Assembly: GCA_000182565.2 (NCBI GenBank) | Contig: KQ257452.1 | Source: Spizellomyces punctatus DAOM BR117 | Lineage: Eukaryota | Reading direction: 5' to 3' (one strand) | DNA length: 64,000 bases | In this document: one piece after another, positions 12,376 through 37,214 of the stretch | Layout: each line of letters starts with the position of its first letter | How positions within the stretch are numbered: the stretch's first letter is position 1 | Made by a program: the position numbers and the translations under genes | The notes under the pieces: model-generated | Database searches by the model: none | What the model was told of the DNA's origin: nothing | Seen by the model: only the letters and a program-made list of their open reading frames with translations

Positions 12376-12465
12376 TTTCAGCAGTTTCTTTAGTGCGGAG
12401 CCGATGGGTATTGGCACTAGCACCCGCACCAGGGATTGAACCGGCGACAACCAGTTCGGAAAAGC
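12376..12465 (-). ncRNA. Fanzor omegaRNA (scaffold ~12465-12391 plus flank-derived guide AAGAAACTGCTGAAA...)
   Basis: Segment between ORF stop and element end is conserved in both copies and resembles the SpuFz1 omegaRNA as remembered; RNA ends inferred. Confidence 0.75.
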
Positions 12466-13448
12466 TAATCTAACTAAACTACGCTACGCTACCGCTGGAA
12501 CACCCCTGCTGAACACCTCTGGTCTACCGTGCCCATCCAACATTGATTGCACGATCGTTAGCATATTACAGGTTGCCAGCGTATCTCGGTTCCAGTAGCG
12601 CATTCTCGACGTCCAGTCTTGCTGCAAACAGTTAGGGTTGGTACAACCCAGCAATCCATGGACTTTTTCAATCTTGCCTTCGCGTCACCGCCAAGGTCTT
12701 GAATGAGGTCATTCTTTGAAGCCTTTCTCGACAAACTCAGATGAGGAACAGCGAGGGCAAACAGATGAGGTCTTGTATTCGTCGAGAAGAAAGCAGTTGA
12801 TCCTGTTCCACTTAAAGAGGGTGCGCCAACCTTTCATCTTTGATGAGGTCTGAAATCTCGCAGTTCGACCGGCATCACTCCAATCACCCATCACAATGGT
12901 AAAGTTCCCAAACTTGTTGCGCATGTTGCTTATGAGGTCTGATTCACTCTTCTGACGGTTTATAAATGCATGCCACTTCCACCGCATGTGGGCAGGATGC
13001 AAATAGAAGTCCTTGCGGCAGTTCCAGTCGGCACGGCGAACGAGGAGATAGCGAGTAAAGTCCATGAGGTTCATCGTCTTGTGAGATGGTATTCGTGATT
13101 CTATGAGGTCAATACCGCCGGCTTTCATCTGCTGCCGTTCTTTTGCAAATCGACGGCTTCCGGTCTCCATGGCTCGCTGGTTGGCAGTGTAGCGAAACGT
13201 ACCATTGCCGTCTTGGCAGTAGAGAATGTCATGCTTGTTTGGGTCGATAACAATGACATTCTCTGCTGCTCGACAAGCAGGTAAGTTTTTCTCCACATAA
13301 AGTGCTGTCACCTCAGCTGTAAGAGTTGTTGCTGACTTTTTCCCACCACTGCGCTTCCCATACTTGTCTGCTTCTGGGTGCTTTAGGTATACAGACACCG
13401 AGGTTCCATCCATGGTGATCGAGCCTTCAAACTGCATACCGCGGCGAG
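12391..13448 (-). mobile_element. Fanzor1 element (Spu-1-like), 5'-truncated, right end intact
   Basis: RuvC-type ORF remnant plus conserved end ...GTGCTAGTGCCAATACCCATCGGCTCCGCAC-TA, shared with the copy ending at 38328. Confidence 0.9.
12484..13448 (-). pseudogene. Fanzor1 nuclease C-terminal half (RuvC I/II/III + zinc finger), two in-frame TGA stops
   Basis: IVIDPNK (RuvC-I), VMGDWS, LDEYKTSSVCPRC (RuvC-II/ZnF), GLLGCTNPNC, WNRD (RuvC-III); TGA at 12709-12711 and 12685-12687; natural stop at 12484-12486. Confidence 0.9.
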
Positions 13449-13486
13449 TGATACAGTGCATCAGATAAGTCATATGCACTGTATCA
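13449..13486. repeat. Perfect 13-bp inverted repeat (hairpin) at the Fanzor/virus junction
   Basis: TGATACAGTGCAT (13449-13461) / ATGCACTGTATCA (13474-13486), 12-nt loop. Confidence 0.9.
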
Positions 13487-13487
13487 G

Positions 13488-13558
13488 CCGGCTTATAATA
13501 TGATATACCCAGCTTATAATATGATATACCCGGCTTATAATATGATATTAATAAGCCG
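13488..13558. repeat. ~3 x 21-bp tandem repeat ending in a quasi-palindrome
   Basis: CC(G/A)GCTTATAATATGATATAC x3; last unit CGGCTTAT...ATAAGCCG is self-complementary. Confidence 0.9.
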
Positions 13559-13874
13559 TATTGAAGTGTTTGCCCAATGCATTGGAGTGTTTCAAAGTGT
13601 TTCAAAGTGTTTCGAGTCTTCCAAGGTGTTTGTCCAAGTCCGGGACTATTGATGAAGGGATGTGCGCATCTACGCCGAAAATTTTCTCTGACATACATGT
13701 AAAGTTTTATGCATCTAATATTTCGCGTGTCCAAACTCCACCTAATTCAAAGTCAACACTGGTTCTAACTTGACATTCACTTCTTCTCAAGACTCCATGG
13801 TTCGTTTCCCTTGGGCGGTTCATTTGGTGATTTTACTTGAGCAAATTCTTGCCACTAGGTTCAAATGCCACACT

Positions 13875-14273
13875 TTATGAAATCACTTTATCTTGGGACT
13901 CCATCTCTCCACCTTCCTTTACTGATGGTACTCGGGAGACCTTCAGTCTCAACACTTTTCGTTGTTTGCGGTAGATTGTGGAAATCTCCATCACTTGGTC
14001 TTCTGTATATCCTGCCTCCATCAGCCCCTGCTTGACGTCATCCACCAAAGCACTTAGCTTCTCCTCTACTAGTGATGCCACATACATATTTGAACCATCT
14101 TCGCCTATGATTGTCCTCACATCCTTCTTAACCATTTTCCTTTCAATTGCCTCCTTTCTACGGCGATTCGTTGTTACGACTGCTTGGTGCATCTCATTGT
14201 CAACTGTGAGTTGGTAGAACCTCTTCATCTCATTTAGCTCTTCTTCACTTGCTCGCCTCATCATTTTCTCCAT
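13875..14273 (-). CDS. Viral hypothetical protein, 132 aa, helical/charged
   Basis: Intronless ATG ORF with upstream TTTATAAAA, inside the viral island. Confidence 0.6.
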   Translation of the reverse strand: MEKMMRRASEEELNEMKRFYQLTVDNEMHQAVVTTNRRRKEAIERKMVKKDVRTIIGEDGSNMYVASLVEEKLSALVDDVKQGLMEAGYTEDQVMEISTIYRKQRKVLRLKVSRVPSVKEGGEMESQDKVIS

Positions 14274-15265
14274 TGTTAATTGCAGCTGTATTCGAATGTT
14301 GTATATGGAATCATTTTTGAAAAGAAGGCTTCGAGCTGGGGAGACCGGTGACCCTCTTTTATAAACGGAAAAGGAACTCTCCCATCTTATCGATATGATG
14401 GCCTTCTTTTATGTCCCATCTGATCCATATGTTTCCTTATGTTTCCTTTGAAGAATAATGATTCTATCGATACTTTCCCTCATATTTCATGTGACCTTTC
14501 TATCAACAGTAACCTTTCGCAAAAAAGGGAAACTAATGGAGATGCTGGAAAAAATCCTAGAACTAGGGCTTTTTCGCAACATGCCCATTTTCGCTCACTG
14601 CTCCACAAAAACAGCTCTAGAATCCTAGCCCTTTTTTTGCCCGGTCTTCTCTACTTTTCAAAAAATTTTCATTTTTTTTTTTCAAAATTGAAATTTGATT
14701 CCATTTGTGAGATTTGACCCGGGAAATGGGCTAGAATGGCTAGGATTCTTGTCTTTCGCTATGTAGGGTATTTTATACTACTAATAAATAAATATATATN
14801 NNNNNNNNNNNNNNNNNNNNNNNNNNNNNNNNNNNNNNNNNNNNNNNNNNNNNNNNNNNNNNNNNNNNNNNNNNNNNNNNNNNNNNNNNNNNNNNNNNNN
14901 NNNNNNNNNNNNNNNNNNNNNNNNNNNNNNNNNNNNNNNNNNNNNNNNNNNNNNNNNNNNNNNNNNNNNNNNNNNNNNNNNNNNNNNNNNNNNNNNNNNN
15001 NNNNNNNNNNNNNNNNNNNNNNNNNNNNNNNNNNNNNNNNNNNNNNNNNNNNNNNNNNNNNNNNNNNNNNNNNNNNNNNNNNNNNNNNNNNNNNNNNNNN
15101 NNNNNNNNNNNNNNNNNNNNNNNNNNNNNNNNNNNNNNNNNNNNNNNNNNNNNNNNNNNNNNNNNNNNNNNNNNNNNNNNNNNNNNNNNNNNNNNNNNNN
15201 NNNNNNNNNNNNNNNNNNNNNNNNNNNNNNNNNNNNNNNNNNNNNNNNNNNNTTCACAAAACAGT

Positions 15266-15667
15266 ATGACGAGTTTCAAGGAATTCTTCAATATCACATT
15301 CAGCGCGCCTACGGATGGCTCTCTTCTTATTCCTACAATGGGCTACAATGCTAACTCGGATGAGGAAAGACGAATCGTAGCAATTGTCTTAGACATCATT
15401 AATTTCATCGTGACAAACCCAGAGAAGAGTCCTTATACGAGGGTTCCTTTTGTTGACAACAAAGAAAAAGTGAGAAAATATGGAGAAGAACTTGACGAAG
15501 TTGGAGAGGAAATCGGTGTTGTTGACATGTTGTTCAGCGTCCATAGTTTTCTGATGGAGTGGATAGCTGAATGCAGTCAGCTAGGGAATCCCGACTGGCA
15601 AGCATATCGAGTAGATTTATGTAGTCTGGAGTACCACTGGGATGGGATTGGAGGATGGCAGGCTTAA
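15266..15667 (+). CDS. Viral hypothetical protein, 133 aa (C-terminal WDGIGGW motif)
   Basis: Intronless ATG ORF with protein-like composition. Confidence 0.65.
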   Translation: MTSFKEFFNITFSAPTDGSLLIPTMGYNANSDEERRIVAIVLDIINFIVTNPEKSPYTRVPFVDNKEKVRKYGEELDEVGEEIGVVDMLFSVHSFLMEWIAECSQLGNPDWQAYRVDLCSLEYHWDGIGGWQA

Positions 15668-15802
15668 GAAAAGTAGAATGGAAGCTGTGGGCATCTGTAT
15701 CGATGATAGCAATGGCCACATGATGTAGAACACGATGTAAAGCGTCATTATTATATAAAGTATCTTAACGTTCACATGTTGGCAGTATTGTATAACTAAA
15801 AA

Positions 15803-16156
15803 ATGTCGTCTGACCAAGAACCTAAACATACAAAGCAGTTCCGATGTGCTTTTTATTCCCAGACTATTTACCGAGCGATAGATGGAATACTCTCTGCGGC
15901 GGATGATGAAGAAGACCATCTCAAGGCTGCACTTGAGGCACTTCAATGGGCGGCTCAACATATTTTCGAATATCCTACACATTTTGAAACTAGTTGGCCT
16001 GGTATGATTCTCTTACTATCTACCACTATAGGAACATATCGTCAAATGCAGCATAAGAGTGAAAAGGAATCATTTGTTGTCGAACAATTAGACTTAATCC
16101 TTCATTGTACTAAGAGTCTATCTAGTTCGATGGATAATGAGGTTGTTGTGTGTTGA
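15803..16156 (+). CDS. Viral hypothetical protein, 117 aa
   Basis: ATG preceded by TATAACTAAAAA; intronless. Confidence 0.55.
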   Translation: MSSDQEPKHTKQFRCAFYSQTIYRAIDGILSAADDEEDHLKAALEALQWAAQHIFEYPTHFETSWPGMILLLSTTIGTYRQMQHKSEKESFVVEQLDLILHCTKSLSSSMDNEVVVC

Positions 16157-16379
16157 ATAGAACTGCGGATGAAACATTAGTTTCCAGACCCGTGCATTGC
16201 TGCACAAAAAGCTGTGTTGGCATCTGTGTTTCAGATGCGTGTGGTTTCTTTTTCGTTTCTTTTTGTGGTCAGTCCAACGAAAGAAGCCATGAAAAGGAAA
16301 GGACTGTATGACCCAATGGGGATACAGTTCTCCATCTGCATCCCCATCTTTTTATAGAGAAAAAAAAGGGAAGCCGCGT

Positions 16380-16694
16380 TCACGCACTTTCCATCCGCAT
16401 TTCTAGAACAAAGAGCCTTTCATTATGATTGTGTCCTAAGAGAACGCAATCCTGCAAGATGGCCAAGTAGCCGGAATTTCGAAAGCAGATTTCATCCAGT
16501 TTCTTCAAGTGGACGATTGACAAAATCTCTTTGAAGATGTGTTCATTCTGGTCTGTTTTCGGAAGAAACAATATGATACGTTTTTTATCTCCTGTCATCA
16601 TACCTCGACAGTACCTCCAGAATTTATCCATGTCACCCTTCACAGCGTCCTTGATGTTCAATACTGAATGACCTTCAATATCCGCGTGTCGCAT
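16380..16694 (-). CDS. Viral hypothetical protein, 104 aa
   Basis: Intronless ATG ORF directly after the fibre gene. Confidence 0.5.
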   Translation of the reverse strand: MRHADIEGHSVLNIKDAVKGDMDKFWRYCRGMMTGDKKRIILFLPKTDQNEHIFKEILSIVHLKKLDEICFRNSGYLAILQDCVLLGHNHNERLFVLEMRMESA

Positions 16695-16746
16695 TCTTAT
16701 CTTGCATAGCTTCTTTTTTAAATGATGGCAAATGAAGTTCCTTTCT

Positions 16747-19700
16747 TTAAGACCCTAATTCCATTACCTCTATAATGGTTACATCTGCGCTTGTGTCCAG
16801 TGCTGCATTTACTGCTGAAAAATTGGTAAAATATGCTACATCAGGAACTAACCCCGACACAATGAATGAGGCATAAATTGTTCTGTTCACTCCAGCATTA
16901 TAGTTAAAATCACTGGAAAAGACTGACGGCATCGAACTGGCATTAGTTCCTAGATACACATTGAGCGTTCCTCCTGCATTATTGGTGCCATGCAAGTTGA
17001 TGGTATAGCGTATCAACGCCCGGCCGGCTGTAGAAACATAGAACGTCTTTGTTCCGCTACCAGTTGTGATTACATCTTTAGTTAGCATTTTGAACACCTG
17101 AACCTTAGGAAACTGTACTTGAGATGACACCCATGCTTGAGTAGCGCAGACCTGTCCGTTGCTATACACAGCACCATTTGAATACAGATTCCCACCTGAT
17201 ACGACATGGGCACCGACCGCAATTCCACCTGCAACAACCAAAGCGCCAGTTGTACTCGATAACGCTGGAGTGGTGCTTTCAACAACGACATTACCTGTGT
17301 TAGGATAAACGTAAATACCTTTTGCTCCCTGAGATTGAAGGCGTACGGCACCAACGTCATTCCTGAGTGTGAGTGTATTAGCGCCTCCATCTACTGTTCG
17401 ATTTGAGCCATTCATAAAAAGAACGGAAGAACCCACGGCCGTCGTTAAATAGTAAATTGGTGCTGCATTCGAACCGAGGTCTACATTCTTGACCTGAATG
17501 CTTCTTAAACCATTTACACTGGTGTTTCCGATGATGACATCTCTATCAAAATAAGCATTTCTGGTTGCTCCATTAAGCGACATACTTCGAATAGATGCGT
17601 TGCTTTGTCCGACATAGAAATTCAGGTCAACATTGTTACTACCAGGCAAATAGGATTGTATAGAACATATATTTTGTGTTGCGTGTGAAAACATGAGGGT
17701 ATTGGTTTGGCCAACACTATAGTTAGTATTTTGGACGGTCATTTGTGCACCAGAAACCCATAGTTTCTTAGCGATTCCTGCTCCACCCTTCACTTGAAGT
17801 GCTCCAGTGATGGCTGATGTGGAATCAGTTATGTCATTTACAACAAGTGTTCCTGTTGATAATGCGGTACTACTGGATATGGTATCCTGCTTTGATGATA
17901 CTGATGTTTGTAGGGTTGCAACGCTTCCTTGCAGTGCTGATATGCTGGGGGCATAGTCGACAATGTTTAAAATGCTTCGTACTTCGATGTCATTTGTGAG
18001 AGTGAATCCTTGGACATCATCTCCCATGAGAAACATATTGCTCATTGGTGACATCGCAGCGAGAGTAGAGAGTAAAGGACTAGCATTTTGCTTCCCTGAG
18101 ATGTCGACATTCATAACTCCTAGAATTGACTTCACCTCTTCAACGGTTTTCGTGGAGAATGATGTAGCAGAACTTCCAACAATAAATGAATTTGCAGATA
18201 TTGCGAGTCCACTGATAGAATCTAGGAGCGGACTCAATGTCTGTTTTGAAGCAATGGCTGTACCTACATAACTCTCGGTTGCTAGTTTTATACCATTTGA
18301 GAAAACATTTCCACCGACATAAAGCGCTTTACTAATTCCAACTCCCCCTTTGACTTGGAATGCGCCAGTTGTTGTGGAAGTACAATCTGTCGTCGTATTG
18401 ATAATAACATTCCCAGATGAGAGAATATCTAATTGAGATGAACTATTTGTAACACCAAATCTCATGTTAGTATTCCATGCCCGCAGGCAGACATCGTTAA
18501 TCTGATCGTTGAAGAAGGCTTGTCCATTCAAAGATGGGGAGAAGAATGTCATGTCACCAGTATTGACATTTCCACCGATGCTACCCCATCCAAAACCATA
18601 GCCAGTCCCTTTTCCACTGGTTACCTTATTACCAACCCACAGAGTCTTCGCAATTCCAACACCCCCAGATACCTGCAAGGCTCCTGATGTCGCAGACGAG
18701 GAGTCTGTAGCAGTCAACACCTTAACTTCATTCGAAATGGATACAATCTGTAGACCTAATCCTAGACCAGATTTTCCTTGGATGTTCATGTCTCCACAGT
18801 CATTCCAAAGTGTAGCGTTGTTCCCGGCTCCATCTGCAGTCCTTGTAGAAGAGTTGAGGAAAAGTAACGCACCATTGCCGCTGTCATTGGCACAACCAAT
18901 GGCTGTGTAGGCATTAACGCCAGACGAAACGTTTCGAGATTGAACCCAGTTTGGAGCATCCACAGAGGAGTTACCAATTACATTTCCTCCAGCATACAAG
19001 TCCTTTGCAACACCTAAACCACCACTTACTAGAAGTGCTCCTGTAGTCAAACTAGTTGACTGTGTGGTATTTGTAATATATGTAATACCAGTATTAGAAA
19101 TCTTTAACACATAACCGACGTTGTTATATGAAGAGTTGATCCCAAACCCACCTGCTGGGTTAGAGCCATCGGCTGAAGAACCTGCTACTCGAAGACCCCA
19201 AGTGATATTCGATGAAGAGTTGACCAGGGACATATATGTTGGATTGGCACCATTAATTACTGTTACATAACCACTAGCCGTAACTGAGGCAAGACTCAAA
19301 TTAGTTGATGTGGTGATGTTGTTCTGTTTACCAGAAAGGAGTGTATTCACGTTAGCATTGGTTGCTATATTGAGGATGCCTTTCACTTGAGTGGAAGTAA
19401 CATTCTCGAACGTAGTCCCAGCAGAAGAATAAAGCCAACTGTCAGGCTGTACCGTCATTGTGTACAGAGAGTTGGTAGCGCTGTTCATTGGTTGCTTCGA
19501 TGCGAGTGCAGTATTAATGGCATTATTGTTATTAGTAACAGTTGTTGATAGTGAAGACAAGGTTTGACTTATTGGAGCGGTGTTATCAATTACAAATTTT
19601 TGAGATGCAACTTCGAGACCTCCGATGTAAGCCATTCCACCGATATATGCATCAGTTGATACTCCTAGGCCGCCACTCACGACCATATTACCTGATGGGT

Positions 19701-22700
19701 CAATTCAGAACACGTATCCTTTATCTTGGTATGACGAGTAAAAGCCTAATGCTCCAGAAAGTAGGTTTCCATTTGAAGTACCGGAAACATGAACGCCCCA
19801 TGTCTGTGCAGTGCTAGTGTTCCCTAGTGTGAATGCTGTAGCATTGGTGTTTGAATTTTGTACCGTTAAACCGCTCAGGTTAAGCGAACTCGCAGGTGTA
19901 ATCAGGGGCTGATATGTGCTGAGGATTTCATCTTTAGGTACGATCCGGAAAAAACCACCATTTCCCATTAAAAAAGTACCATCGGTCGGGGTCAGACTAC
20001 TTATATTGTCGAGCAAAGGAGATAAGTTTTGCTTCGATGCTAATCCTGTTGTTACAAAGGATTCTGTGGCTACCTTCATATTGGTGGAGGCGAAGATATT
20101 ACCACCAATGAATACATCCTTTGCAATACCAACACCACCAGGACTTACTAGGGAACCGGTTGTTGGAGAGGTTGATACGCTTGTGCTATCCAGTGTAATG
20201 ATACCAGTGTTTGCCTGTATTGTTAGTCCTCTAGCAGTCTGTGCTTGAAGCCGAAGACTGCCTGCATCATTCCTTAATGTCATTGTTGATGCTCCTCCAT
20301 CCACTGTTCGCGAGGCACCGTTCAAAAACATCACTCCAGAACCTCCTGAGGCCGTAAGATAAAGAATGCTACAAGCATTGCTTCCTGAAGAAAGGTTGGA
20401 TACAACCAGCGAACGTAGACCGCTCACAGAAGATGATCCGATAGTAAGGTCACCCCCTACAACGCACGAACCATTTGTGTCCACTCTTAGACCTAGAGTA
20501 GGCATGCTAGATGTCCTAGGATATATGAACATTGGTAAATCCTGAGCACCGAGCCATGTTGAAGCACCGGGGTTGTATCCTAAAAAGCCTGTGCCATCGA
20601 GCCTGAACCAGGTGCTTTTTGTTGAATCAAAACTGTTCGAAATAAAGACAGATGATTGTCCTGCTGATGAGGCGGTAGTTTGAACTCTGCTTCCTGTAAT
20701 GACTTTCCCTGATATATTCACTCCAAATACAACATTATTTGAAGTCAAATTAGTTATCTGTGATGTTGTCCATGGCTGTATCACTTCCATGTTAAAGTCT
20801 CTTAACATTCCCAAGTTGATTGCTTGCTGAGGGTATTCATATTTGATGCCTCGATAACATGAAGGCGTATCAAACAAGAGACGAGTACAACCTCCTATTG
20901 GATCAGAAGCAATTGCGACATTGCTCCCGGGTTCAAGTGGTGGCATGAAGGTAACAGGGTCTATTGGTTCGTAAACGGGGTTTCCATTGCCATCGAGTAT
21001 AGGTTGGCCTTCCGCATCTCGTTGAACCTTACGTTTGCGTGACCCTCCGAAAATCATAGCCCATGGAAATGCACTTGTAATAGGAAGAATTGAATTGACA
21101 GCCATGGGAACCGTAAGAGGAGGACTAGCCATGGCTGGAAAGGGTATAGTTGAAAGAGGGGTAATACTGCTTGCCACCACCACATTTCCATCCGGGATAT
21201 CAGTTTTCAAGATTTCAGCCGTGTCAGTTTGCTCTGTATTGTCTGTATCCCTTTGCTTCGATAATGGCGTAGGGTCAATGAGGGTAAAGTTATAAAGCGG
21301 ATACGAACCTGTAATGATGAGATTTGGACTGTTACTTACAAATTGAGGAGGAATCATGTTATACTGAATCGTATTTCCAACAACAATAATACTTCCATAT
21401 GAGTTGGTACTGCCCACATAATTACCTCTTAAGGAATCGCCTACGCAAAGAACGGTATCACTTCCTGTAAGTGAACATGAAATCAAGTCGCCGCTGACTT
21501 GTACACCATTTATACCTCGGAGATTAGTAGATAGAATGGCACCGTTCTTCTGGAGGCCTATCCCGGCTGCTATATTAGAACTTAAAACCCTGTTGTTGAG
21601 GGTTAAATCTGGAGACTGGGCTGTTAACGACAGCCTATAATTGTTGCCCACCCGTGTTACCCCTTGGGAGGCTGTGAATGTATCCCGTATGGTACCCCTG
21701 TTTACCATGGCCAAACCGCTGTTAGCATCAACTTTTAGATCGAGTTGAAGGTCATTCTGTACTCTCTCGATACCATTGCTGCAAGTCAGTACATCTTTAA
21801 TGGTATCTGCTTTGACCATTTGGAGACAACTGCCAGCCTTGCATTTAAGAGATAATACCACATCATTGGTCGTTCCAGGTCGAATAGATACGCCATTAAA
21901 GTCCTGAAAAATGTACCCACCTGTGAGTGCATTTCCAACAATTCTGATGGTCTGATTATCGACCAAACAGCCTATCTCTCGACGTCCAGCAGCCTCCGGA
22001 CTCACGGCGATTGCTCCTGTTTGAGAGCCTTGATAAAATTGTGAAAGATAGTCTTTACTTACAGCATACGAGCCACCTCCAATCGCAGGCAATGTTCCGC
22101 TTAACTTTACATTGGGTACACGCAACTCCTGAAGCGTGGACGAATAGGTGAATGAAGAACTTCCCGAGTAGCCATAAGTAAGGTTCCCATACATGATTTG
22201 TTCATATCCGGGTGATTTCAGGGACAATCTCGATCCCGCTTGACTGAATGTCGAAGAATCGACCATTAAGCGTATTGCTGTGGTGTCTACCTCTCCTAAC
22301 ACATTAGTCATTTCGGTCAGACTACCAAATCCAAAGTCGAGCCATGAAGACCTGATGTCTAACAGCGTATCCGCACTGCTGGATGTCTTTATAGCCCCAA
22401 ATGCTTTGAACAGTTGGCTTGAGTTTGTTTCGAGTTCATCTGAACTATTCACCTTCAAACTCTTGTGAAGTTTGACACCAATTCCATTATCCCGATATAG
22501 AGGTTTCTTCAGTGTTTCTAGAGGCGGCGGTGGTGGAAAGTTCACTGAAAGTCCGTTTTCGTTAATGGATAATGTCTCATCCACTCTAATACCAACCGTC
22601 CATGATTCATCATCATGGTACATTGGGAACTCATAATTTTCGGGAATCACTTTCAGTTTTTCTTCTTCTACAGATAAAGATGAATCATCAAACTGAAGTT

Positions 22701-23049
22701 GGATATCATGACCCTCTTTTGAGTAGACAAGAGGTTGATGCGCAGATATGTCGATTGTGGTCAACTGACTCTCCTCATCAATTTCAAGCCTCTTGTTATC
22801 AACATTTAATCCAATGGATATGACGCCATGTTCATTCATACAAGGTAAGCATTCAGAGGTGGTTTCAACCTCGTTGACTTTAAGTTCACCATTTTCATTA
22901 GATAAATGCTTAAATTCTCCAACATCGAACCCCTTTATCTTGGCTCCAGCATCGAAGCCAACCATTTCGCCTGTCACATATGGAGATAAGAGATTTGTGT
23001 TATCTACGGTATGTAACCCCGTAGAAGTTCTACTATTAATTCCAGACAT
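16747..23049 (-). pseudogene. Viral fibre/spike protein, ~2100 aa, split by a single in-frame TGA (19705-19707)
   Basis: ORFs 19705..23049 and 16747..19686 are in the same frame (GYVF*IDPSGNMVVSGG); beta-spiral-like N-terminal repeats; repeated TSxTTGALxVxGGxGIAKxLYVGG units. Confidence 0.8.
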
Positions 23050-23106
23050 GTTATATTGTAGCTAGGAAGTAAAATTTGAGGAGCTTGGCAAAAGTGCTCG
23101 AGGGTG

Positions 23107-23128
23107 CCCATCTTATCGATAAGATGGG
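23107..23128. promoter_or_regulatory. Perfect 22-bp palindrome CCCATCTTATCGATAAGATGGG
   Basis: Self-reverse-complementary and intergenic; near-copy at 14381-14401; function inferred. Confidence 0.6.
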
Positions 23129-23139
23129 ATGATAAAACC

Positions 23140-24572
23140 TTACGATATCTTCTGTTTCTTCCTCGGTGGAAGTGTGACATCCTCTGCTCCTTTTCTCCTT
23201 CTACTTCGAACTGTAGGTTCCACACGCAGTGTCGATTGTGTTTGTGCAGGAGGGACAACATATTCCGCTTCACGTTGTCCTCGCAATCTTGTGAGTGGAC
23301 GTACTTCACTTCCCAAGTCCGCGGTTAGCGGTACTAACGTTGGAGGATTGACAGCAACATTCGGAGGTGCTGGTGCAAAATTGACTTTTCTCCTATTTTT
23401 GGCTCATATATGTTTTTCAACTTCTTCAGGGGATGTTAATCTAATTTCCTCTACTTCCTCTCGTTCGGGTATAGAAGAATCTATTCTTTGTCTTTTTACC
23501 GTGGTCTGCTTATCATCTGGTTGTTTGTACTGTCTTCTTTTGGTTCCATGAGGAGCAACTCCAGCAAAAATCACATCCGGTGGTGGAGTTACTGGCTCTG
23601 TTTTTTGCTTCTTTTTGTTTAATCGAGGAATCGGCGGGGGTGCATTTGCTTTCCTTTTGGAACCTGCTAATATGGTTGCTTCCTTACCTTTGAAGTGAAA
23701 TGGAGTTCTAGCAGGAACCAGGATAAATTTTTCATTGACGGAGTTCTCTCTAAAACATCCGCTACACCAGACGGATCATGGCGGTCATTCAGGAGTACTG
23801 TATCATGCGGAATTGGTGCGGCACTACGAGGCATTGTTTCCATGGAGGCATCGATTTGAGGAGATTCCACATGAACCTCTGGAGTCAAGCCAGGGAAACT
23901 GCCTGGAATCGGTGGAATATAAGCATCGGCCATTGTCATCGCATCCAATGGAACAGCAGCGCCAGTCCCATGATTGACATGGTCATTTCCAACTGCATCT
24001 CGTCTAATTTCTGTCTCCCTTGTTAGAATTACAGGTTCTAGGGGAGTAGAATTTACATTACGTGGCTGTGCTGGAATCTCATTTCCATTAGGTGGTGCTT
24101 CAAACATTAAGCCCGTTTGGGAAGTCACTGATGCGGGATAGGAAAACACATGCCCCGATTCATCAGGAATCGGTAATCCTGAAAGGGAATTTTGCGTTCC
24201 AACAGTTAGAGCGTTCCCTCGACGACTTGGTGTAATAGAATCAAGATACTTCTGTTTCTTCCTGTAATCTTCCTCTGCTTTAACATATTCAAGACCGTCC
24301 CTGTAAGCCTTGGTAGTTCGTTGGGCAGCCGATAATTTCAGAACATCAGAAGATGAGAGCCTCGGTTCATATTTCGGTGCTGCATAGTTCGTCTTTGTTG
24401 CTAGGTCTTTCTCATGGACATTGCGGTTCCACGAATAGACAACTTGTGGTCGTCCGAGGATATCAATCTTTGAATAGTCTAGTGCGACACCCACTTGACG
24501 TTTTTGCAGATTTGGAATCGGTGGCGAAATAGCATATGTATCACTCAAGTAATTGGCTCGGTAATATGCCAT
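23140..24572 (-). pseudogene. Viral Pro-rich/basic protein (~475 aa), frameshift near 23745 and TGA at 23404-23406
   Basis: The 301-aa ORF continues in another frame as NEKFILVPARTPF..AGSKRKAN..KHI*AKNRRK..PPRKKQKIS*. Confidence 0.6.
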
Positions 24573-24637
24573 ACTAGGTTTTTTCCTTTGCTATGTAGAG
24601 CTGAAAAAATAATATCTCTTCTGTTCTATAAATCAAG

Positions 24638-24934
24638 ATGCCTAATTGGTTTTCTAAAGCGAAAGCAAAGGCAAATGTTCTGTGGAATAACGCACCGTCA
24701 TATGTTGCCAAAGCAAGGAACTTTGCTAATCAAGCAGTCCGGCACGCCACCACATTGAATAAACACGTGCAGCACGTAAATCGCCAAGTACAAGAGTCAC
24801 CACTTTTCTCAGCAGGAGTCCGAGAGAAAAGTCAAAAGATTTCTAGTCATGGAGACACTGGGCTGAGGAAACTTACAGAACTTCACAAGAACGCTGACGA
24901 CTTTGTTGAAAGAGTGACTGGGAAAATTGAATGA
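24638..24934 (+). CDS. Small basic viral protein with N-terminal amphipathic helix, 98 aa
   Basis: MPNWFSKAKAKANVLWNNAPSYVAKARNFANQA; ATG preceded by TCTATAAATCAAG. Confidence 0.7.
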   Translation: MPNWFSKAKAKANVLWNNAPSYVAKARNFANQAVRHATTLNKHVQHVNRQVQESPLFSAGVREKSQKISSHGDTGLRKLTELHKNADDFVERVTGKIE

Positions 24935-25048
24935 ACATATTTGTTTAGGCTGGTTGTTCAAGAAGCAGTAAGAAGCTAGAGCTTTATGTAGACGACAAGC
25001 TGGGAATTAAAACATCTCAAAAAGATGGGAAAAAATGCCAAGGCAGCC

Positions 25049-26302
25049 TTAGACCACAGTCACGACCACACCAATGCTTAAAGTGACATTTTCGTGGTAG
25101 CACGTTACCATACGCACCTTTTGCGTAGGTGCAACAGCATGTTGCATATGTACTCTTAATAAACCGTCTGTCCCTGTAAAACTCAATGCCGCCTGACTGC
25201 CTTCATCCTTGCTGGCAAAACTCCATCCAAATGAAAAGGCTTTTGAATCATAGTCGGCGAACGACATATCCATCTCCCCGAGTTGGTCAAAGTTGTTATT
25301 TGATAACTGTGTGACCAGTAACGTTTGATTATCAGATGGGCTATGGCTGAACCCTTGCGTTCCACTTGGAATGGTAAGATTTGCCCCCAATTGAATTCGC
25401 CACTCGCGAAGCCCTTGTGAAGAATACATTAGCGCCTTATCTTTCGTCTGGTCATTGAGAACATCATCGTCCACAAACGACATTTCGATCCCTTGAAGTG
25501 ACCTTACACCACTCATATGAAGCAAAAATGTATTCCGGTTTCCGCCACTACATGCGTTTTCCGTTTGGGTTGAGCGCACATAGTCATAGAATATTGGCTT
25601 TCCATCACTTATAGCGCGTGTTGAATTGATGACACTGCTTGGTGGTGGTGTCACATACGAAATCAAAGTCCTGATATTTGATACTCTAATCTCTCCAACT
25701 CCAGCCGATGTAAAGACGGTTGAAGGATCCGCAAGCGTGATTATGATTTCGAGTGCTTGATTTGGAAGTGCCCAAACAGGGAAGAACTGGTCATTTGTCA
25801 GATGAAAGAAACCCACAAAAGGGTGATGGTTGATGGAGATGGTACTCGATGTTGCAAAGATATTGGTGTTTCCATATCCGGAAAGTTGGCTCAACAATTT
25901 CTTACTACCAGCAGATAGATTGCGGTACGTTTGTACTAGATAAAGAGGATAGTTTGGTATATTGACAACTGTTTCTCCTCCTGCTTTGATGGTCAATGAT
26001 TGAATAATGGATTCCAAGCCAAGATACGTGTTTTTAACACCTGTACCAGGAGTTATCAGGTTCCCTGCATTATCATATGCAGAAACATCCATTGACAGAA
26101 TTAGTTTCTGCAAAATGAAAGAGACCGAATTCGAGTTGCAAGTGATCTTAATCGGAGTCAGGTTTCTTGACTTTGTCGTATATGTACTTTGACCTATCGG
26201 AGAATAGATTGACACCCCCTCACCGCGAGGATCGGAGTAACTTTTGGCGAAGGAATTTGTTGAGAAGATCCAGTTACGTGGTACAGCAACTTCTTCTGAC
26301 AT
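25049..26302 (-). CDS. Double-jelly-roll major capsid protein (Polinton-like virus type), 417 aa
   Basis: GLESIIQSLTIKAGGETVVNIPNY, FFPVWALPNQALEIIITLADP and IRVSNIRTLISYV match remembered PLV MCP patterns; size; adjacent to minor capsid and ATPase. Confidence 0.85.
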   Translation of the reverse strand: MSEEVAVPRNWIFSTNSFAKSYSDPRGEGVSIYSPIGQSTYTTKSRNLTPIKITCNSNSVSFILQKLILSMDVSAYDNAGNLITPGTGVKNTYLGLESIIQSLTIKAGGETVVNIPNYPLYLVQTYRNLSAGSKKLLSQLSGYGNTNIFATSSTISINHHPFVGFFHLTNDQFFPVWALPNQALEIIITLADPSTVFTSAGVGEIRVSNIRTLISYVTPPPSSVINSTRAISDGKPIFYDYVRSTQTENACSGGNRNTFLLHMSGVRSLQGIEMSFVDDDVLNDQTKDKALMYSSQGLREWRIQLGANLTIPSGTQGFSHSPSDNQTLLVTQLSNNNFDQLGEMDMSFADYDSKAFSFGWSFASKDEGSQAALSFTGTDGLLRVHMQHAVAPTQKVRMVTCYHENVTLSIGVVVTVV

Positions 26303-26344
26303 CTTTGTTTACTGATTGCAGGAAAAAAAAAAATGGAAGATTTT

Positions 26345-26885
26345 TCAGCCAAAAATACCACCATAGTTGTCCTCCTCAACATTGTCCTCCTCAAAGAATG
26401 GTGATCTAGAGTCAAAGAATGGTTCATCATCACCGAATTTCAAAATTACGCTCTTTTTTTTAGATGGACGTATTGCTGCTGGCTGCGCCTTTGCTGCTGG
26501 TTTGGATCTCTTGCTCCTAGTTGGTGTTGGTGTTGGTGTTGGTGTTGCCTTCTTTCCTCGCTTCGTGTTTTGTCGTTCTTCCCTCGCCAACCGCTTCTGT
26601 TCCTTCTCCTCTTCAAGGATGCGTTTGGCCTCATCGATCCTCCTTTGTTTATCCTGCTCCTTCCGTTCCTTCTCGCGTTTTGCTTGCATTAGGCGCAATT
26701 GTTCAGCCCTCGCTTTCTGCGCCTTCTCCAATGCAGCCCGTTGCTTGTCCGTCATCGGGCGTTTCACCTTTTGCTTTGGAGGCTGTTCTGGTATAATTTC
26801 TGCTTTTTGAACAGGTGCTTGTTCAGCGGGTGGTTCTACATTATCTTGTGGAACGGCACTCGATTCTTGATGATTTTGATTTTAC
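26345..26885 (-). CDS. Basic coiled-coil viral protein (start probably within the N gap)
   Basis: KRPMTDKQRAALEKAQKARAE.., PTPTPT repeat, acidic tail; frame stays open upstream of 26767 to the gap. Confidence 0.7.
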
Positions 26886-27054
26886 NNNNNNNNNNNNNNN
26901 NNNNNNNNNNNNNNNNNNNNNNNNNNNNNNNNNNNNNNNNNNNNNNNNNNNNNNNNNNNNNNNNNNNNNNNNNNNNNNNNNNNNNNNNNNNNNNNNNNNN
27001 NNNNNNNNNNNNNNNNNNNNNNNNNNNNNNNNNNNNNNNNNNNNNNNNNNNNNN

Positions 27055-27681
27055 GAATTCGATTTTGGAGATAGTGTCATCAACAGGGAGCCATTCACCT
27101 CTGTCGTTAGTCCACGTGACTACATCGCCGAAACTATCAGGGACAACCGCAGCAATTACGGATTGGGCGGAATCATTGAAGTCACTGAGGAAACGGCTTC
27201 CTTGGACTTGGATGTTGCTTGTGACAAGCATTGGATACGAACCGGACAAATTGACAGCATTCTTCAGTGTGATAGTCTTGTAATATCCCGTTTCACTCCA
27301 TCTTGACATTCCTGTTAGAAGATAAGAGGATGTTCCTCTCGAAGCGGCAAGAACCTTGAAGTTCTTGCTACCAGATGTGGAAAGTGTCAATCTCCTCATA
27401 ACAGAGTTGTATGTGGCATTGTAGGCTTGTGTCCCGGCTGAACTCAACGCTTGAGCAATGGCATTTGGAAAATTTGCTATGCTGTAGTTACCATTAGGTA
27501 TTTTCGCAGATAAGATGGTTGGATCGCCTTCTTCAACAAAATTAATCGTGTTATTAGAATCGTTGACCAGATCCCAATCTTGAAGGAAAGAAACCGAGAG
27601 AACCTTCATCATTTCCATCCTCCGAGGAGGTATTGAGAATGATCGAGACTTTAAGGAGCAGTATGTCACTTCGTTAATCAT
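27055..27681 (-). CDS. Minor capsid (penton-like single jelly roll) protein; 3' end in N gap
   Basis: SNNTINFVEE..AKIPNGNYSIANFPNAIAQAL motif typical of PLV/virophage minor capsids; beta-rich; ends ISKIEF at the gap. Confidence 0.75.
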
Positions 27682-27722
27682 GATATTTCCTTACCTTTAT
27701 GTAAAGACAAAGGAAAATTTAA

Positions 27723-28323
27723 ATGTCCTATAAACCACGCCCAATCTTTCCCGTAGGGAAAAAGAAGAGAGATCCTCGTGTTCCACGTGACCTGGCATCA
27801 CTGCCTCTATGTACAACTCTTGTCGCTCCGAGGAAAAGTGGTAAAAGTGCATTAGTCTGCGGTCTGATTGAGGATGTCTATGCTAAATTACACGATCGAG
27901 TCATTATCATGTCCGACACAGTTGAATATGATGCTTCTGTGAAGGTACTGGCCGAAACCACAAAACATAAAAATATCTACTTTACAGACGAGGTTTCCAA
28001 TGCATCCATCGCTAAAATAGTAGAAGAACAGAAGAAAACGCCTGAGAAGTCACTTCTATTATTCATTGACGACGCTGGTGATTCTGCGCAAAGTAAAGAA
28101 CTCAACAAGGAGTTATCGAAACTCTATACAAAAGGGAGGCATTTCAATATAGGAAATATTGTAGCCATCCAGAGTGTAACCGGACAACTTTCATGTAAAA
28201 TGAAGAACTGCACCACTGAGTGGGTGGTGTTTAAAAACAATGCAGAGGACATGAAACTTTCAGCAAAGTTACTTGCTTCCGCCTACAAAGATGATAAAGA
28301 AGTTCTAACATTTCTCACCGAGT
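27723..28323 (+). pseudogene. A32-like (FtsK-HerA) genome packaging ATPase, C-terminally truncated by an LTR
   Basis: Walker A APRKSGKS, Walker B LLLFIDD, KGRHFNIGNIVAIQ motif; the stop codon is supplied by the LTR start. Confidence 0.9.
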
Positions 28324-28923
28324 TGTAGCGGATTTTTTGTTGGTAGACTACGGTAAAGACAACTTGGGTCTCCTAGCAGGTTGTGTGGGTGTCCGTACTA
28401 GGAATCGTAGTCTCCAAATCCTTTCTTTGGGCGTCGGTAGCGACTTGGGGGCGAGAGGCAAGGAGAGTCGGTTAGTTGTGAACCGAGCAGGATTTAGAGG
28501 CTTCGGTACGGGTGATCAGGCCGTTGAAGCGCTCTGTTAGGTTCCTGTTAACCTAAGATTGGAGTTGAGAAGCGAGTTATGGGGATTTTGTGTCGCTACG
28601 GCTTCTGCCCCCGACTTATTTTATTGAATACCTCCTTTTTATACAAGATTCTTGGATAAACTGTTAAACTAAACTAAACTAATGGGTGTCGCTGCACCGC
28701 AACTGATTTATTGGTGGCGGTACCGATCTCTTCCTTTTCCGCACTGGCTCGGGCCTCCACAGGTTGTACGAGGCACGCTGAAATCTAATGCGCCAATTGC
28801 CATTCTCCGAACCGGTTTTTTCGGTCGCGGTAACCCAATCGGTGGAGTTGGTCACGCGATTCGTGCTTCCCGCGTCCGATTTGGGCTTACTCGCGATCTC
28901 TCGAAGACGTCCTCGTCGTTACA
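28324..28923 (-). repeat. 3' LTR (600 bp)
   Basis: TGTAGCG...CGTTACA; 7 mismatches to the other LTR by eye. Confidence 0.95.
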
Positions 28924-28934
28924 TCCCCCCTTTG
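28924..28934 (-). other. Polypurine tract
   Basis: Minus strand CAAAGGGGGGA abutting the 3' LTR. Confidence 0.85.
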
Positions 28935-28980
28935 AAGAGCCAACACACCGGCGCTCCGAGCGGGGGTGTTGGGACGTCAA

Positions 28981-36540: not shown

Positions 36541-36596
36541 GAGTTTCGGTACGACCGAATAAGGTTTTCAGCTGAATTTGAGAGGGGAAGGCGGTT

Positions 36597-36614
36597 CGTC
36601 GCGCTTCTCCACCA
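36597..36614 (-). other. Primer-binding site, probably tRNA-Ala
   Basis: Minus strand TGGTGGAGAAGCGCG directly after the 5' LTR, complementary to a ...UCUCCACCA tRNA end. Confidence 0.75.
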
Positions 36615-37214
36615 TGTAACGGATTTTTTGTTGGTAGACTACGGTAAAGACGACTTGGGTCTCCTAGCAGGTTATGTGGGTGGCCGTACTAGGAATCATA
36701 GTCTCCGAATCCTTTCTTTGGGCGTCGGTAGCGACTTGGGGGCGAGAGGCAAGGAGAGTCGGTTAGTTGTGAACCGAGCAGGATTTAGAGGCTTCGGTAC
36801 GGGTGATCAGGCCGTTGAAGCGCTCTGTTAGGTTCCTGTTAACCTAAGATTGGAGTTGAGAAGCGAGTTATGGGGATTTTGTGTCGCTACGGCTTCTGCC
36901 CCCGACTTATTTTATTGAATACATCCTTTTTATACAAGATTCTTGGATAAACTGTTAAACTAAACTAAACTAATGGGTGTCGCTGCACCGCAACTGATTT
37001 ATTGGTGGCGGTACCGATCTCTTCCTTTTCCGCACTGGCTCGGGCCTCCACAGGTTGTACGAGGCACGCTGAAATCTAATGCGCCAATTGCCATTCTCCG
37101 AACCGGTTTTTTCGGTCGCGGTAACCCAATCGGTGGAGTTGGTCACGCGATTCGTGCTTCCCGCGTCCGATTTGGGCTTACTCGCGATCTCTCGAAGACG
37201 TCCTCGTCGTTACA
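36615..37214 (-). repeat. 5' LTR (600 bp)
   Basis: TGTAACG...CGTTACA with perfect 7-bp terminal inverted repeats. Confidence 0.95.

What the first reader, a model, noticed from the sequence alone, without database searches (positions are those of the whole stretch)
13449..28323. Endogenous Polinton-like DNA virus in a chytrid fungal chromosome
Seen: ~15 kb of intronless, tightly packed ORFs between intron-rich fungal genes, including an A32-type ATPase (Walker A/B, GRH motif), a 417-aa MCP-like protein, a penton-like protein and a giant fibre. Established: DJR MCP + penton + A32 ATPase is the morphogenesis module of Polintons, PLVs and virophages, and capsid-encoding dsDNA viruses are rarely reported from fungi. 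Inference: a fairly recent provirus (MCP still intact) that lost its replication/integration arm. No pPolB, helicase, integrase or protease is visible here.
Basis: partly seen in the sequence, partly recalled or inferred. Interest (0 to 1): 0.9.

Follow-up and report, generated by a model that had tools for sequence, protein, structure and literature searches.

The report
Defective polinton-like provirus in Spizellomyces
This is a broken, silent copy of a small capsid-forming DNA virus lodged in the chromosome of the soil chytrid Spizellomyces punctatus, a virus group already described from this same genome, so it is real but not new.

Summary
Window 13.4-28.3 kb is a low-GC block of long ORFs. 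It encodes a double-jelly-roll major capsid protein (fold search, E 6e-14 to PBCV-1 Vp54), a penton protein, an A32/FtsK packaging ATPase (Pfam Pox_A32 above its cutoff) and about 2,100 aa of adenovirus-like fibre.

The closest relatives are annotated "hexon", "penton" and "FtsK" of Powellomyces chytrid fungus MELD viruses. Paralogues 91-97% identical carry Spizellomyces punctatus DAOM BR117 locus tags, and the window lies on a scaffold of that genome.

An integrated polinton-like virus in this genome, and an "S. punctatus group" of PLVs, were published in 2021. The Powellomyces MELD viruses were published the same year. The finding is therefore correct but already known.

New details:
- The copy is defective. 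An LTR retrotransposon cuts off the last ~35 codons of the ATPase, with no target-site duplication, and everything beyond is missing.
- The fibre reading frame contains one TGA.
- No replicase, integrase, protease or viral TIRs are present.
- One RNA-seq run shows essentially no reads over the viral genes.
- The whole nest is bracketed by two inverted, 5'-truncated Fanzor (SpuFz1-family) copies. These are most likely independent insertions.

The parts
12391..13448 (-). Left flank, not viral: a 5'-truncated Fanzor1 (SpuFz1-family) copy with its 3'/right end facing outward. It forms the left arm of an 84%-identical inverted repeat.
   Evidence: PDB sequence search: 8gkh SpuFz1, E 8.6e-138, ORF residues 84-328 aligned to chain 710-956. 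Inverted repeat 12391-13286 against 38328-37438. ChIP read depth is ~400 here and drops to ~18 after 13448.
13875..14273 (-). 132-aa ORF of unknown function. It is multi-copy in the genome and may be the leftmost viral gene.
   Evidence: Its 90% cluster has 5 members at 96-98% identity. One of them (SPPG_09540) lies 9 accession numbers from the MCP paralogue SPPG_08453 on the same 321,667-bp scaffold. No Pfam, PHROG or Atlas match.
14421..16746 (.). AT-rich stretch (GC 0.40) with an assembly gap (N 14800-15252) and only small ORFs without matches (15266-15667 +, 15803-16156 +, 16380-16694 -). Whether it is viral is undecided.
   Evidence: Pfam and PHROGs gave 0 families.
16747..19686 (-). Fibre, distal 979-aa ORF, in the same frame as the upstream fibre ORF.
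   Evidence: Shares repeat modules with the 1114-aa ORF (BLASTP E 9e-33). PHROG 697 'structural protein', E 3.8e-5.
19705..23049 (-). Fibre, proximal 1114-aa ORF with an adenovirus-fibre-like N-terminal motif. It ends in the TGA at 19705-19707, and the same frame continues beyond that stop.
   Evidence: Pfam Av_adeno_fibre, E 2.1e-5, residues 99-134. Read-through translation and stop codon.
23667..24572 (-). 301-aa ORF of unknown function.
   Evidence: No Pfam, PHROG or Atlas match.
24638..24934 (+). 98-aa ORF of unknown function, divergent from the 301-aa ORF.
   Evidence: Pfam gave 0 families.
25049..26302 (-). Major capsid protein (double jelly roll), full length at 417 aa.
   Evidence: Model pLDDT 72, pTM 0.75. 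Foldseek PDB: PBCV-1 Vp54 E 6.1e-14, plus Sputnik, SGIV and PRD1 P3. BFVD: NCLDV, virophage and adomavirus MCPs, best E 9.9e-17. 68% identical to 'hexon [Powellomyces chytrid fungus MELD virus 5]'.
26345..26881 (-). Lys/Glu/Arg-rich ORF: 136 aa from the first ATG, 178 codons stop-to-stop. It runs up to the assembly gap. A role as a core or DNA-binding protein is inferred from composition only.
   Evidence: Pfam gave 0 families.
27055..27681 (-). Penton protein, N-terminal 209 aa. The C-terminal ~30 aa fall in the N run 26886-27054.
   Evidence: 16 homologues, including 'penton' of MELD viruses 5 and 2 (241 aa; 66% and 55% identity). VIA-align: PBCV-1 capsid chain 8h2i_bG Z 12.4, EhV-201 8rbt_S Z 11.5, mavirus penton 6g41_A Z 6.3.
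27723..28323 (+). A32/FtsK-type packaging ATPase, lacking its last ~35 residues.
   Evidence: Pfam Pox_A32. 19 homologues; those covering the whole query are 223-243 aa, and one is named 'FtsK [..MELD virus 2]'. The alignment shows the C-terminal truncation. The tail is absent from the rest of the window.
28324..37215 (-). Ty3/gypsy (chromodomain) LTR retrotransposon that truncates the ATPase. LTRs at 28324-28924 and 36615-37215.
   Evidence: The LTRs differ at 7 of 601 positions. The polyprotein carries RVT_1, RNase H, rve and Chromo. The flanks CGAGT and TTAGG do not match, so there is no target-site duplication.
37216..37440 (.). 225-bp spacer ending in ..TGTTACA, possibly the tail of another LTR. 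It abuts the right Fanzor fragment.
   Evidence: No similarity to the viral block.
37438..38328 (+). Right flank, not viral: a second 5'-truncated Fanzor copy, inverted relative to the left one, with its 3' end facing outward.

Best explanation
The block from about 13.4 to 28.3 kb is a defective endogenous copy of a polinton-like (MELD-type) dsDNA virus of Spizellomycetales chytrids. It is integrated in a 1.9-Mb scaffold of Spizellomyces punctatus DAOM BR117.

Shown:
- It keeps the virion module: a double-jelly-roll MCP, a vertex penton, about 2,100 aa of adenovirus-like fibre and an A32/FtsK packaging ATPase.
- It is one of at least five MCP-bearing loci in this genome.

Inferred from what these protein families do in related viruses: in an intact virus, MCP trimers and penton pentamers would build an icosahedral shell, the fibre would sit on the penton, and the ATPase would pump in a 14-25 kb linear genome. 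That genome would also carry a replicase and often an integrase.

This copy cannot do that:
- A Ty3/gypsy retrotransposon removes the ATPase C-terminus, and all viral DNA beyond it is gone. The likely cause is an LTR-associated deletion, because there is no target-site duplication (inferred).
- The fibre frame holds a TGA.
- No replicase, integrase, protease or viral terminal repeats remain.
- The viral genes were not transcribed in the one RNA-seq run examined.

It is best read as a decaying viral fossil in a transposon nest, bracketed by two unrelated partial Fanzor insertions.
For: - MCP fold: Foldseek against PDB gave 184 matches at E<=0.001 among the best 500. The top ones are PBCV-1 Vp54 (3kk5_A, E 6.1e-14, TM 0.60), Sputnik, SGIV and PRD1 P3. 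BFVD gave 137 matches at E<=0.001, topped by NCLDV, virophage and adomavirus MCPs.
- MCP homologues: 24 proteins at E<=1e-3, one of them the window's own. Of the other 23, 17 are named from Spizellomycetales genomes, 1 is 'hexon [Powellomyces chytrid fungus MELD virus 5]' (68% identity), and 5 are unnamed.
- ATPase: Pfam Pox_A32 at 30.3 bits against a cutoff of 22.8. 19 homologues; those covering the whole query are 223-243 aa. The window copy stops ~35 residues early, exactly at the LTR start 28324. Its tail is absent from the window.
- Penton: 16 homologues, two annotated as penton. VIA Z 12.4 and 11.5 to PBCV-1 and EhV-201 capsid chains, and Z 6.3 to the mavirus penton.
- Fibre: Av_adeno_fibre motif.
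- Synteny from locus tags: in S. sp. 'palustris' the ATPase, penton and MCP are g08366, g08367 and g08369, on one 22-kb contig. The order is the same in Gaertneriomyces and Phlyctochytrium.
- Host identity and copy number.
- No replicase, integrase or protease in 17 viral-block ORFs scanned with Pfam. The 10 ORFs were also scanned with PHROGs.
- LTR structure.
- Reads: an independent ChIP DNA run (X16) covers all 30 bins. RNA run X15 has depth 0-0.23 over 13.4-27.9 kb, against 147-227 on the flanking repeats.
- Literature: PMC7805220, PMC8502044, and a 2026 bioRxiv preprint.
Against: - Two assembly gaps lie inside the block. The central contig (15253-26885: fibre, MCP) is joined to both sides only by scaffolding, in a genome with paralogous copies.
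- No listed contig piece bridges the ATPase/LTR junction. The nearest one ends at 28308.
- No viral TIRs or integration-site duplication were found, so the true ends are undefined. The left limit could lie anywhere from 13449 to 16747.
- The penton jelly roll itself modelled poorly (pLDDT <50 over residues 147-197). Foldseek against PDB gave 0 matches at E<=0.001, the best being 2.4e-3. Only the insertion domain (residues 36-149) carries the structural match.
- ChIP reads differ from the window at a number of viral positions in all or nearly all reads (for example 16523 and 16938). The reads may therefore come from a slightly different isolate or from paralogues.
- The fibre TGA could be a genuine gene boundary between two tandem fibre genes rather than a mutation.
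- RNA silence rests on one run, of which about 6% was read.
Confidence: 0.9

Rival explanations
1. The virus is episomal or lies elsewhere in the genome, and was placed here by scaffolding. The central contig would belong to another of the paralogous copies or to a free viral genome.
For: N runs at 14800-15252 and 26886-27054 isolate the fibre-MCP contig. At least five MCP paralogues at 91-97% identity exist. Relatives in Powellomyces occur on separate 14-25 kb contigs.
Against: The penton N-terminus and the ATPase are on the same gap-free sequence as the retrotransposon, the right Fanzor copy and the host genes out to 64 kb. Gene order across the second gap (MCP, basic ORF, penton, ATPase) matches the locus-tag order in relatives. 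The published S. punctatus element was also reported inside a large contig.
Confidence: 0.04
2. The block is a fragment of an endogenous giant virus (Nucleocytoviricota/Mycodnaviridae), not of a small PLV.
For: The best structural matches of the MCP and penton are NCLDV capsid proteins. Giant viruses of zoosporic fungi are now described (PMC13533422, passages).
Against: All close sequence relatives sit on 14-25 kb contigs or are named MELD virus proteins. The MCP is 417 aa. Pfam found no other giant-virus hallmark gene in the block. The passages returned for PMC13533422 contain no occurrence of Spizellomyces or Powellomyces.
Confidence: 0.03
3. The retained capsid module is a co-opted or stand-by element, for example a virophage-like defence that is induced only on infection by a giant virus, rather than a decaying fossil.
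For: The MCP ORF is full length and several paralogues are kept at 91-97% identity. PLVs are widely hypothesised to parasitise giant viruses (abstracts listed).
Against: This copy has a truncated ATPase, a stop in the fibre frame and no replicase. There were no RNA reads in the run examined. Induction was not tested.
Confidence: 0.03

Closest known systems
Integrated PLV of Spizellomyces punctatus and the 'S. punctatus group' of polinton-like viruses (Bellas & Sommaruga 2021, PMC7805220)
   Same: Same host genome, judged from named paralogues on the same scaffold. An integrated capsid-encoding PLV inside a large contig, with a new MCP type (passages).
   Different: The paper reports one element. 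At least five MCP loci appear in the protein data here. I could not see its Table S4 because supplements are closed. I therefore cannot say whether this locus is the published one, or whether that copy is complete. Chitinase, reported in 52% of the group, is not present in this copy.
Powellomyces chytrid fungus MELD viruses 1-6 (Starrett et al. 2021, PMC8502044)
   Same: Hexon 68%, penton 66% and FtsK ATPase 69% identical. Adenovirus-like fibre motif.
   Different: Those are complete 14-25 kb genomes with PolB or other replicases (S1H, PolA, S3H) and in some cases a tyrosine recombinase (section 3.4). This copy has none of these and is chromosomal and broken.
Polintons/Mavericks and virophages (for example mavirus)
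   Same: The DJR MCP + penton + A32/FtsK ATPase morphogenesis module, and integration into eukaryotic chromosomes. The mavirus penton is a structural match at Z 6.3.
   Different: No pPolB, RVE integrase or adenain-type protease. No TIRs: the only inverted repeat is made of Fanzor copies.
SpuFz1 Fanzor (Spu-1) elements with embedded Ty3/gypsy (Saito et al. 2023, PMC10432273)
   Same: The flanking ORF matches SpuFz1, E 8.6e-138. The paper reports 42 Fz loci, 134 ghost loci and 11 loci with embedded genes including Ty3 (passages).
   Different: Here two 5'-truncated copies lie in inverted orientation 25 kb apart, with a provirus between them. No such arrangement appears in the passages I read.

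Membership tests
Polinton-like viruses (PLV / MELD viruses of chytrids) | Double-jelly-roll major capsid protein | tested here: met
   AlphaFold model pTM 0.75. Foldseek E 6.1e-14 to PBCV-1 Vp54, also Sputnik and PRD1 P3. BFVD best E 9.9e-17.
Polinton-like viruses (PLV / MELD viruses of chytrids) | Penton (minor capsid, single jelly roll) protein | tested here: inconclusive
   Sequence homologues are annotated as penton. The insertion domain matches PBCV-1, EhV and mavirus penton-type chains at Z 12.4, 11.5 and 6.3. The jelly-roll strands are poorly modelled and the C-terminus lies in an assembly gap. Foldseek gave 0 matches at E<=0.001.
Polinton-like viruses (PLV / MELD viruses of chytrids) | A32/FtsK-HerA packaging ATPase | tested here: met
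   Pfam Pox_A32 at 30.3 bits, above the 22.8 cutoff. Walker A, Walker B and GRH are conserved. The gene is 3'-truncated.
Polinton-like viruses (PLV / MELD viruses of chytrids) | Close sequence kinship to described members | tested here: met
   68%, 66% and 69% identity to the hexon, penton and FtsK of Powellomyces MELD viruses. 91-97% identity to S. punctatus paralogues. No tree was built against the published S. punctatus-group sequences, which were not available to me.
Polinton-like viruses (PLV / MELD viruses of chytrids) | Replication module (PolB, primase-helicase or other replicase) and terminal inverted repeats in complete genomes | tested here: not met
   No such domain in 17 ORFs of the block (the 10 ORFs also by PHROGs). 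The only inverted repeat consists of Fanzor copies. The copy is read as a truncated member, not a complete genome.
Polinton/Maverick sensu stricto | Protein-primed PolB, RVE integrase and adenain-like protease | tested here: not met
   None were detected in the viral block. The only rve/RT domains belong to the Ty3/gypsy element at 28981-36459.
Fanzor1 (flanking elements) | RuvC nuclease with a C-terminal zinc ribbon, flanked by left and right ends | tested here: inconclusive
   The left-arm ORF aligns to chain residues 710-956 of the 1032-residue MBP-SpuFz1 fusion 8gkh, up to the ..CPRC.. motif. SpuFz1 itself is 638 aa. The N-terminal half and the left end are absent from both arms, so both are partial copies.
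Ty3/gypsy chromovirus LTR retrotransposon (inserted element) | Two LTRs (TG..CA) around a gag-pol with RT, RNase H, integrase and chromodomain | tested here: met
   A target-site duplication was looked for and not found.

The most novel reading that the evidence does not exclude
The two outward-facing, 5'-truncated Fanzor copies that bracket the provirus and retrotransposon are not a coincidence. Under this reading, S. punctatus PLV copies are preferentially targeted by, or carried between, Fanzor/omega-RNA elements. Examples would be RNA-guided homing into viral termini, or a Fanzor-bounded composite that moves viral DNA. That would link a eukaryotic RNA-guided nuclease to a fungal dsDNA virus.
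Probability: 0.05. Interest if true: 0.7.

Novelty: already known. Interest (0 to 1): 0.22.

Why it matters
Capsid-encoding dsDNA viruses of fungi are still few, and chytrid PLVs are the clearest case. That case has been in print since 2021 for this very genome and for Powellomyces.

This locus adds only anatomy:
- S. punctatus carries several PLV-derived loci, not one.
- Such a copy can be disabled by an LTR retrotransposon.
- It can sit inside a Fanzor-rich transposon nest.

This is useful for annotating the genome and for choosing which copies to test for activity. It does not open a new question.

Tried and rejected
- Whole-genome search for full copies was not possible, because no genome is held for this window.
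- Related loci with DNA context were not found. MCP alignment A1 found nothing in viral contigs (30 pattern hits, 0 confirmed) or in metagenome contigs (181, 0). MCP P0080 found nothing in metagenome contigs (102, 0). ATPase alignment A2 found nothing in viral contigs (77, 0). A broader MCP alignment (A4) was too divergent for the tool. The gene content of intact relatives is therefore taken from the literature and from locus-tag order only.
- The fibres gave 0 PDB sequence matches.
- ESM Atlas gave nothing usable for the 301-aa and 132-aa ORFs.
- A tRNA at the repeat ends was suspected from the sequence. ARAGORN found 0 genes. Rfam gave 0 matches at gathering score over the whole window, and 0 at E<=1 over 12200-13000.
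- The inverted repeat as viral TIRs was rejected. The arms are Fanzor copies only 84% alike, about the divergence reported among genomic SpuFz1 copies.
- The spacer 37216-37437 as a viral terminus was rejected. It has no similarity to the block.
- A motif shared by the two divergent intergenic regions (24583, 27687) occurs nowhere else in the window. I derived it from those same two sites, so this is not a test.
- The look-up of sequencing runs listed no RNA holder.
- The earlier-findings index returned nothing.
- Of 10 distant MCP cluster representatives looked up, 1 was named (Powellomyces hirtus) and 9 were unnamed: 7 Logan, 1 JGI/IMG, 1 NCBI.

Full report
**What is there**

Between about 13.4 and 28.3 kb the window changes character.
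- GC falls to 0.42-0.43, and to 0.31 around 14-16 kb. The host flanks are at 0.48-0.49 and the adjacent retrotransposon at 0.54.
- The sequence is filled with long uninterrupted ORFs.
- Two runs of N, at 14800-15252 and 26886-27054, are the only gaps in the window. Both fall inside this block.

ATPase (27723-28328, +):
- It hits Pfam Pox_A32 at E 3.6e-7, 30.3 bits against a curated cutoff of 22.8.
- It hits a PHROG annotated as terminase large subunit at E 3.1e-7.
- Walker A, Walker B and the GRH motif are conserved in an alignment with seven homologues.

MCP candidate (25049-26302, -):
- It has no Pfam or PHROG hit.
- Its AlphaFold model, built on 15 sequences, has mean pLDDT 72.3 and pTM 0.75. 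Residues 1-24 and 310-345 are of low confidence.
- Foldseek against PDB found 184 matches at E<=0.001 among the best 500. The leaders are PBCV-1 Vp54 (3kk5_A, E 6.1e-14, TM 0.60/0.61), the Sputnik MCP, the SGIV MCP, poxvirus D13 and PRD1 P3.
- Foldseek against BFVD found 137 matches at E<=0.001, led by NCLDV, virophage and adomavirus capsid proteins with a best E of 9.9e-17.

Penton candidate (27055-27681, -):
- It has 16 homologues at E<=1e-3 among 222 candidates. Two are annotated 'penton [Powellomyces chytrid fungus MELD virus 5]' (66% identity) and '..virus 2' (55%). Both are 241 aa.
- The window copy stops at residue 209 because it runs into the N run.
- Its model is mediocre, with pLDDT 64.1 overall and below 50 over residues 147-197.
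- Foldseek against PDB gave no match at E<=0.001. The best were an EhV-201 capsid chain at 2.4e-3 and the mavirus penton at 9.6e-3.
- The exhaustive VIA-align search gave Z 12.4 (rmsd 2.2, 110 residues) to a PBCV-1 capsid chain. It gave Z 11.5 to an EhV-201 capsid chain, 6.3 to the mavirus penton and 5.9 to a fowl adenovirus chain. All of these cover only model residues about 36-149, the insertion domain.
- I accept 'penton' on sequence kinship plus this partial structural match. The jelly roll itself is not demonstrated.

Fibre (19705-23049 and 16747-19686, -):
- It consists of two ORFs, 1114 and 979 aa.
- The first carries the avian adenovirus fibre N-terminal motif at E 2.1e-5, 24.8 bits against a cutoff of 22.7.
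- The two ORFs share repeat modules (BLASTP E 9e-33).
- They lie in the same frame, separated by a single TGA.
- The order of repeat motifs (..SSY..GYV[FL] followed by ..VSGGLGV..) continues across the stop as it does inside the second ORF.
- A single fibre gene of about 2,100 aa with a nonsense mutation is therefore likely. Two tandem fibre genes cannot be excluded.

**Whose virus it is**
- The MCP search returned 24 proteins, one of which is the window's own.
- Of the other 23, 17 are named from Spizellomycetales genomes: Spizellomyces punctatus, S. sp. 'palustris', Powellomyces hirtus, Phlyctochytrium arcticum and Gaertneriomyces. One is the MELD virus 5 hexon (68% identity). Five are unnamed.
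- The exact window MCP sits on a 1,895,877-bp contig. The 132-aa ORF's paralogues SPPG_01931 and SPPG_01937 of S. punctatus DAOM BR117 sit on that same contig. The window is therefore from that genome.
- MCP paralogues SPPG_08453 (96.9%), SPPG_07203 (95.7%, fused in its gene model to an AP2-domain region), SPPG_08707 (92.7%) and SPPG_05090 (91.5%) lie on four other scaffolds.
- A more distant penton paralogue, SPPG_07591 (73%), lies on a fifth scaffold other than the window's. The genome thus holds at least five or six loci of this kind.
- A profile search of 1.84 billion representatives found 108 MCP-family clusters at E<=0.001, 58 at <=1e-10 and 22 at <=1e-30. Of 10 looked up, 9 were unnamed metagenome or assembly proteins.
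- Locus tags show the same gene order in relatives: ATPase, penton, one gene, MCP.

**What is already in print**
- Bellas & Sommaruga 2021 (PMC7805220; passages only) report one PLV integrated in the middle of a large S. punctatus contig. They describe a new MCP type and an 'S. punctatus group' of 27 PLVs.
- Starrett et al. 2021 (PMC8502044; passages and all of section 3.4) assembled six Powellomyces MELD virus genomes. These combine adenovirus-like fibre proteins with PolB or other replicases.
- A 2026 preprint (10.64898/2026.06.19.733378; passages) notes A32 ATPases from presumed viral regions in numerous chytrid genomes.
- The supplements that would give the coordinates of the published S. 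punctatus element are closed. I cannot say whether it is this locus.
- My searches for Fanzor together with polinton, and for chytrid, polinton-like and endogenous together, listed no paper whose title or abstract describes a Fanzor-flanked PLV.

**How this copy is broken**

ATPase and retrotransposon:
- ATPase homologues that cover the whole query are 223-243 aa. The window copy aligns over its whole 201 aa and then stops about 35 residues short.
- The stop codon is created by the first bases of a 601-bp LTR at 28324-28924. Its partner lies at 36615-37215 and differs at 7 positions.
- Between the LTRs is a 2,492-aa polyprotein with RT, RNase H, integrase and chromodomain, which makes it a Ty3/gypsy chromovirus.
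- The bases flanking the element do not match (CGAGT against TTAGG), so there is no target-site duplication.
- The ATPase tail is not found anywhere else in the window.
- The 225 bp after the right LTR end in ..TGTTACA, like an LTR terminus, and abut a Fanzor fragment.
- I infer that the right part of the virus, where a replicase and integrase would be expected by analogy with complete relatives, was lost in an LTR-associated deletion. This step is an inference.

What is absent:
- 17 ORFs of the block were scanned with Pfam. The 10 ORFs were also scanned with PHROGs. Beyond the ATPase and fibre matches reported above, only sub-threshold Pfam hits appeared.
- No polymerase, helicase, integrase or protease was found.

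**The flanks**
- The ORF at 12709-13698 (-) matches the cryo-EM construct of S. punctatus Fanzor1 (8gkh) at E 8.6e-138. The match covers only its nuclease half, query residues 84-328.
- The stretch 12391-13286 is an 84% inverted repeat of 38328-37438.
- Both arms are therefore 5'-truncated Fanzor copies with their 3' ends outward, and together they bracket the virus and the retrotransposon.
- Saito et al. 2023 (PMC10432273; passages) report 42 Fanzor loci and 134 ghost loci in this genome. They report about 82% identity among the proteins, and Ty3 insertions in or next to Fanzor genes.
- The arms are thus no more alike than unrelated genomic copies. ChIP read depth over them is roughly 60 times that of the virus.
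- I read them as independent insertions in a transposon nest, not as viral terminal repeats. The symmetric arrangement remains unexplained.
- Further out lie ordinary host-like genes with TPR/UBA, LRR, oxidoreductase and Myb domains.

**Reads**
- A 2026 ChIP-seq DNA run under the same species label (X16) covers all 30 bins of 12300-29000. Summed depth is about 3-15 over the virus, about 400 over the Fanzor arm and about 235 over the LTR.
- Contigs of runs X1 and X2 include pieces identical to the viral block.
- No listed piece bridges the ATPase/LTR junction. The nearest ends at 28308.
- Some viral positions differ from the window in all or nearly all ChIP reads.
- An RNA-seq run (X15, about 6% read) has depth 0-0.23 per bin over 13.4-27.9 kb, against 147-227 on the flanking repeats. 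The viral genes were effectively silent in that sample.

**Verdict**

The observation and the identification are right. The element is a defective member of a virus group already described from this genome and its relatives. The novelty and interest are therefore low.

Noticed in passing
window 12391-13448 and 37438-38328: Two 5'-truncated SpuFz1-family Fanzor copies, 84% alike, lie in inverted orientation with their 3' ends outward. Together they bracket the provirus and the retrotransposon. The symmetry is unexplained. They are probably independent insertions in a transposon nest.
   Followed up: partly
window 12391-12472: In RNA run X15, thousands of reads cover just this ~80-nt stretch at the outer end of the Fanzor arm. 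Their loose ends on both sides are variable (for example 3,413 reads ending at 12472). This fits an abundant small RNA made from many Fanzor or ghost loci (an omega-RNA scaffold?). It cannot be assigned to this locus. ARAGORN and Rfam find no tRNA here.
   Followed up: partly
window 19705-19707: A single TGA separates two fibre ORFs in the same frame, and the repeat pattern continues across it. This is either a nonsense mutation in a ~2,100-aa fibre gene or the boundary of two tandem fibre genes.
   Followed up: partly
window 24583-24600 and 27687-27706: The two divergent intergenic regions (301-aa/98-aa ORFs, and penton/ATPase) share the motif TTCCTT-N(4-6)-ATGTARAG, found nowhere else in the window. 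It may be a viral promoter element. The pattern was derived from these same two sites.
   Followed up: partly
protein P0060 (SPPG_07203, another scaffold): In another S. punctatus copy the MCP gene model is fused to a downstream region that UniRef names as AP2/ERF domain-containing. This suggests a homing-endonuclease-like gene next to the MCP in that copy. No such gene follows the MCP in the window.
   Followed up: no
window 37216-37440: A 225-bp stretch between the right LTR and the right Fanzor fragment contains two similar ~30-bp units and ends in ..TGTTACA, like an LTR terminus. It may be a remnant of an older LTR insertion into the Fanzor copy.
   Followed up: partly
window 57384-58226 (-): The ORF ends in a KilA-N domain match at E 3.2e-5, 24.2 bits against a cutoff of 23.8, about 19 kb to the right of the nest. 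The domain is common in viruses and mobile elements as well as fungal proteins.
   Followed up: no
window 13875-14273 (-): The 132-aa ORF has four paralogues at 96-98% identity. Two are on this same scaffold (SPPG_01931, SPPG_01937). One is 9 accession numbers from an MCP paralogue on another scaffold. It may be a conserved left-end gene of the provirus, or a separate repeat.
   Followed up: partly
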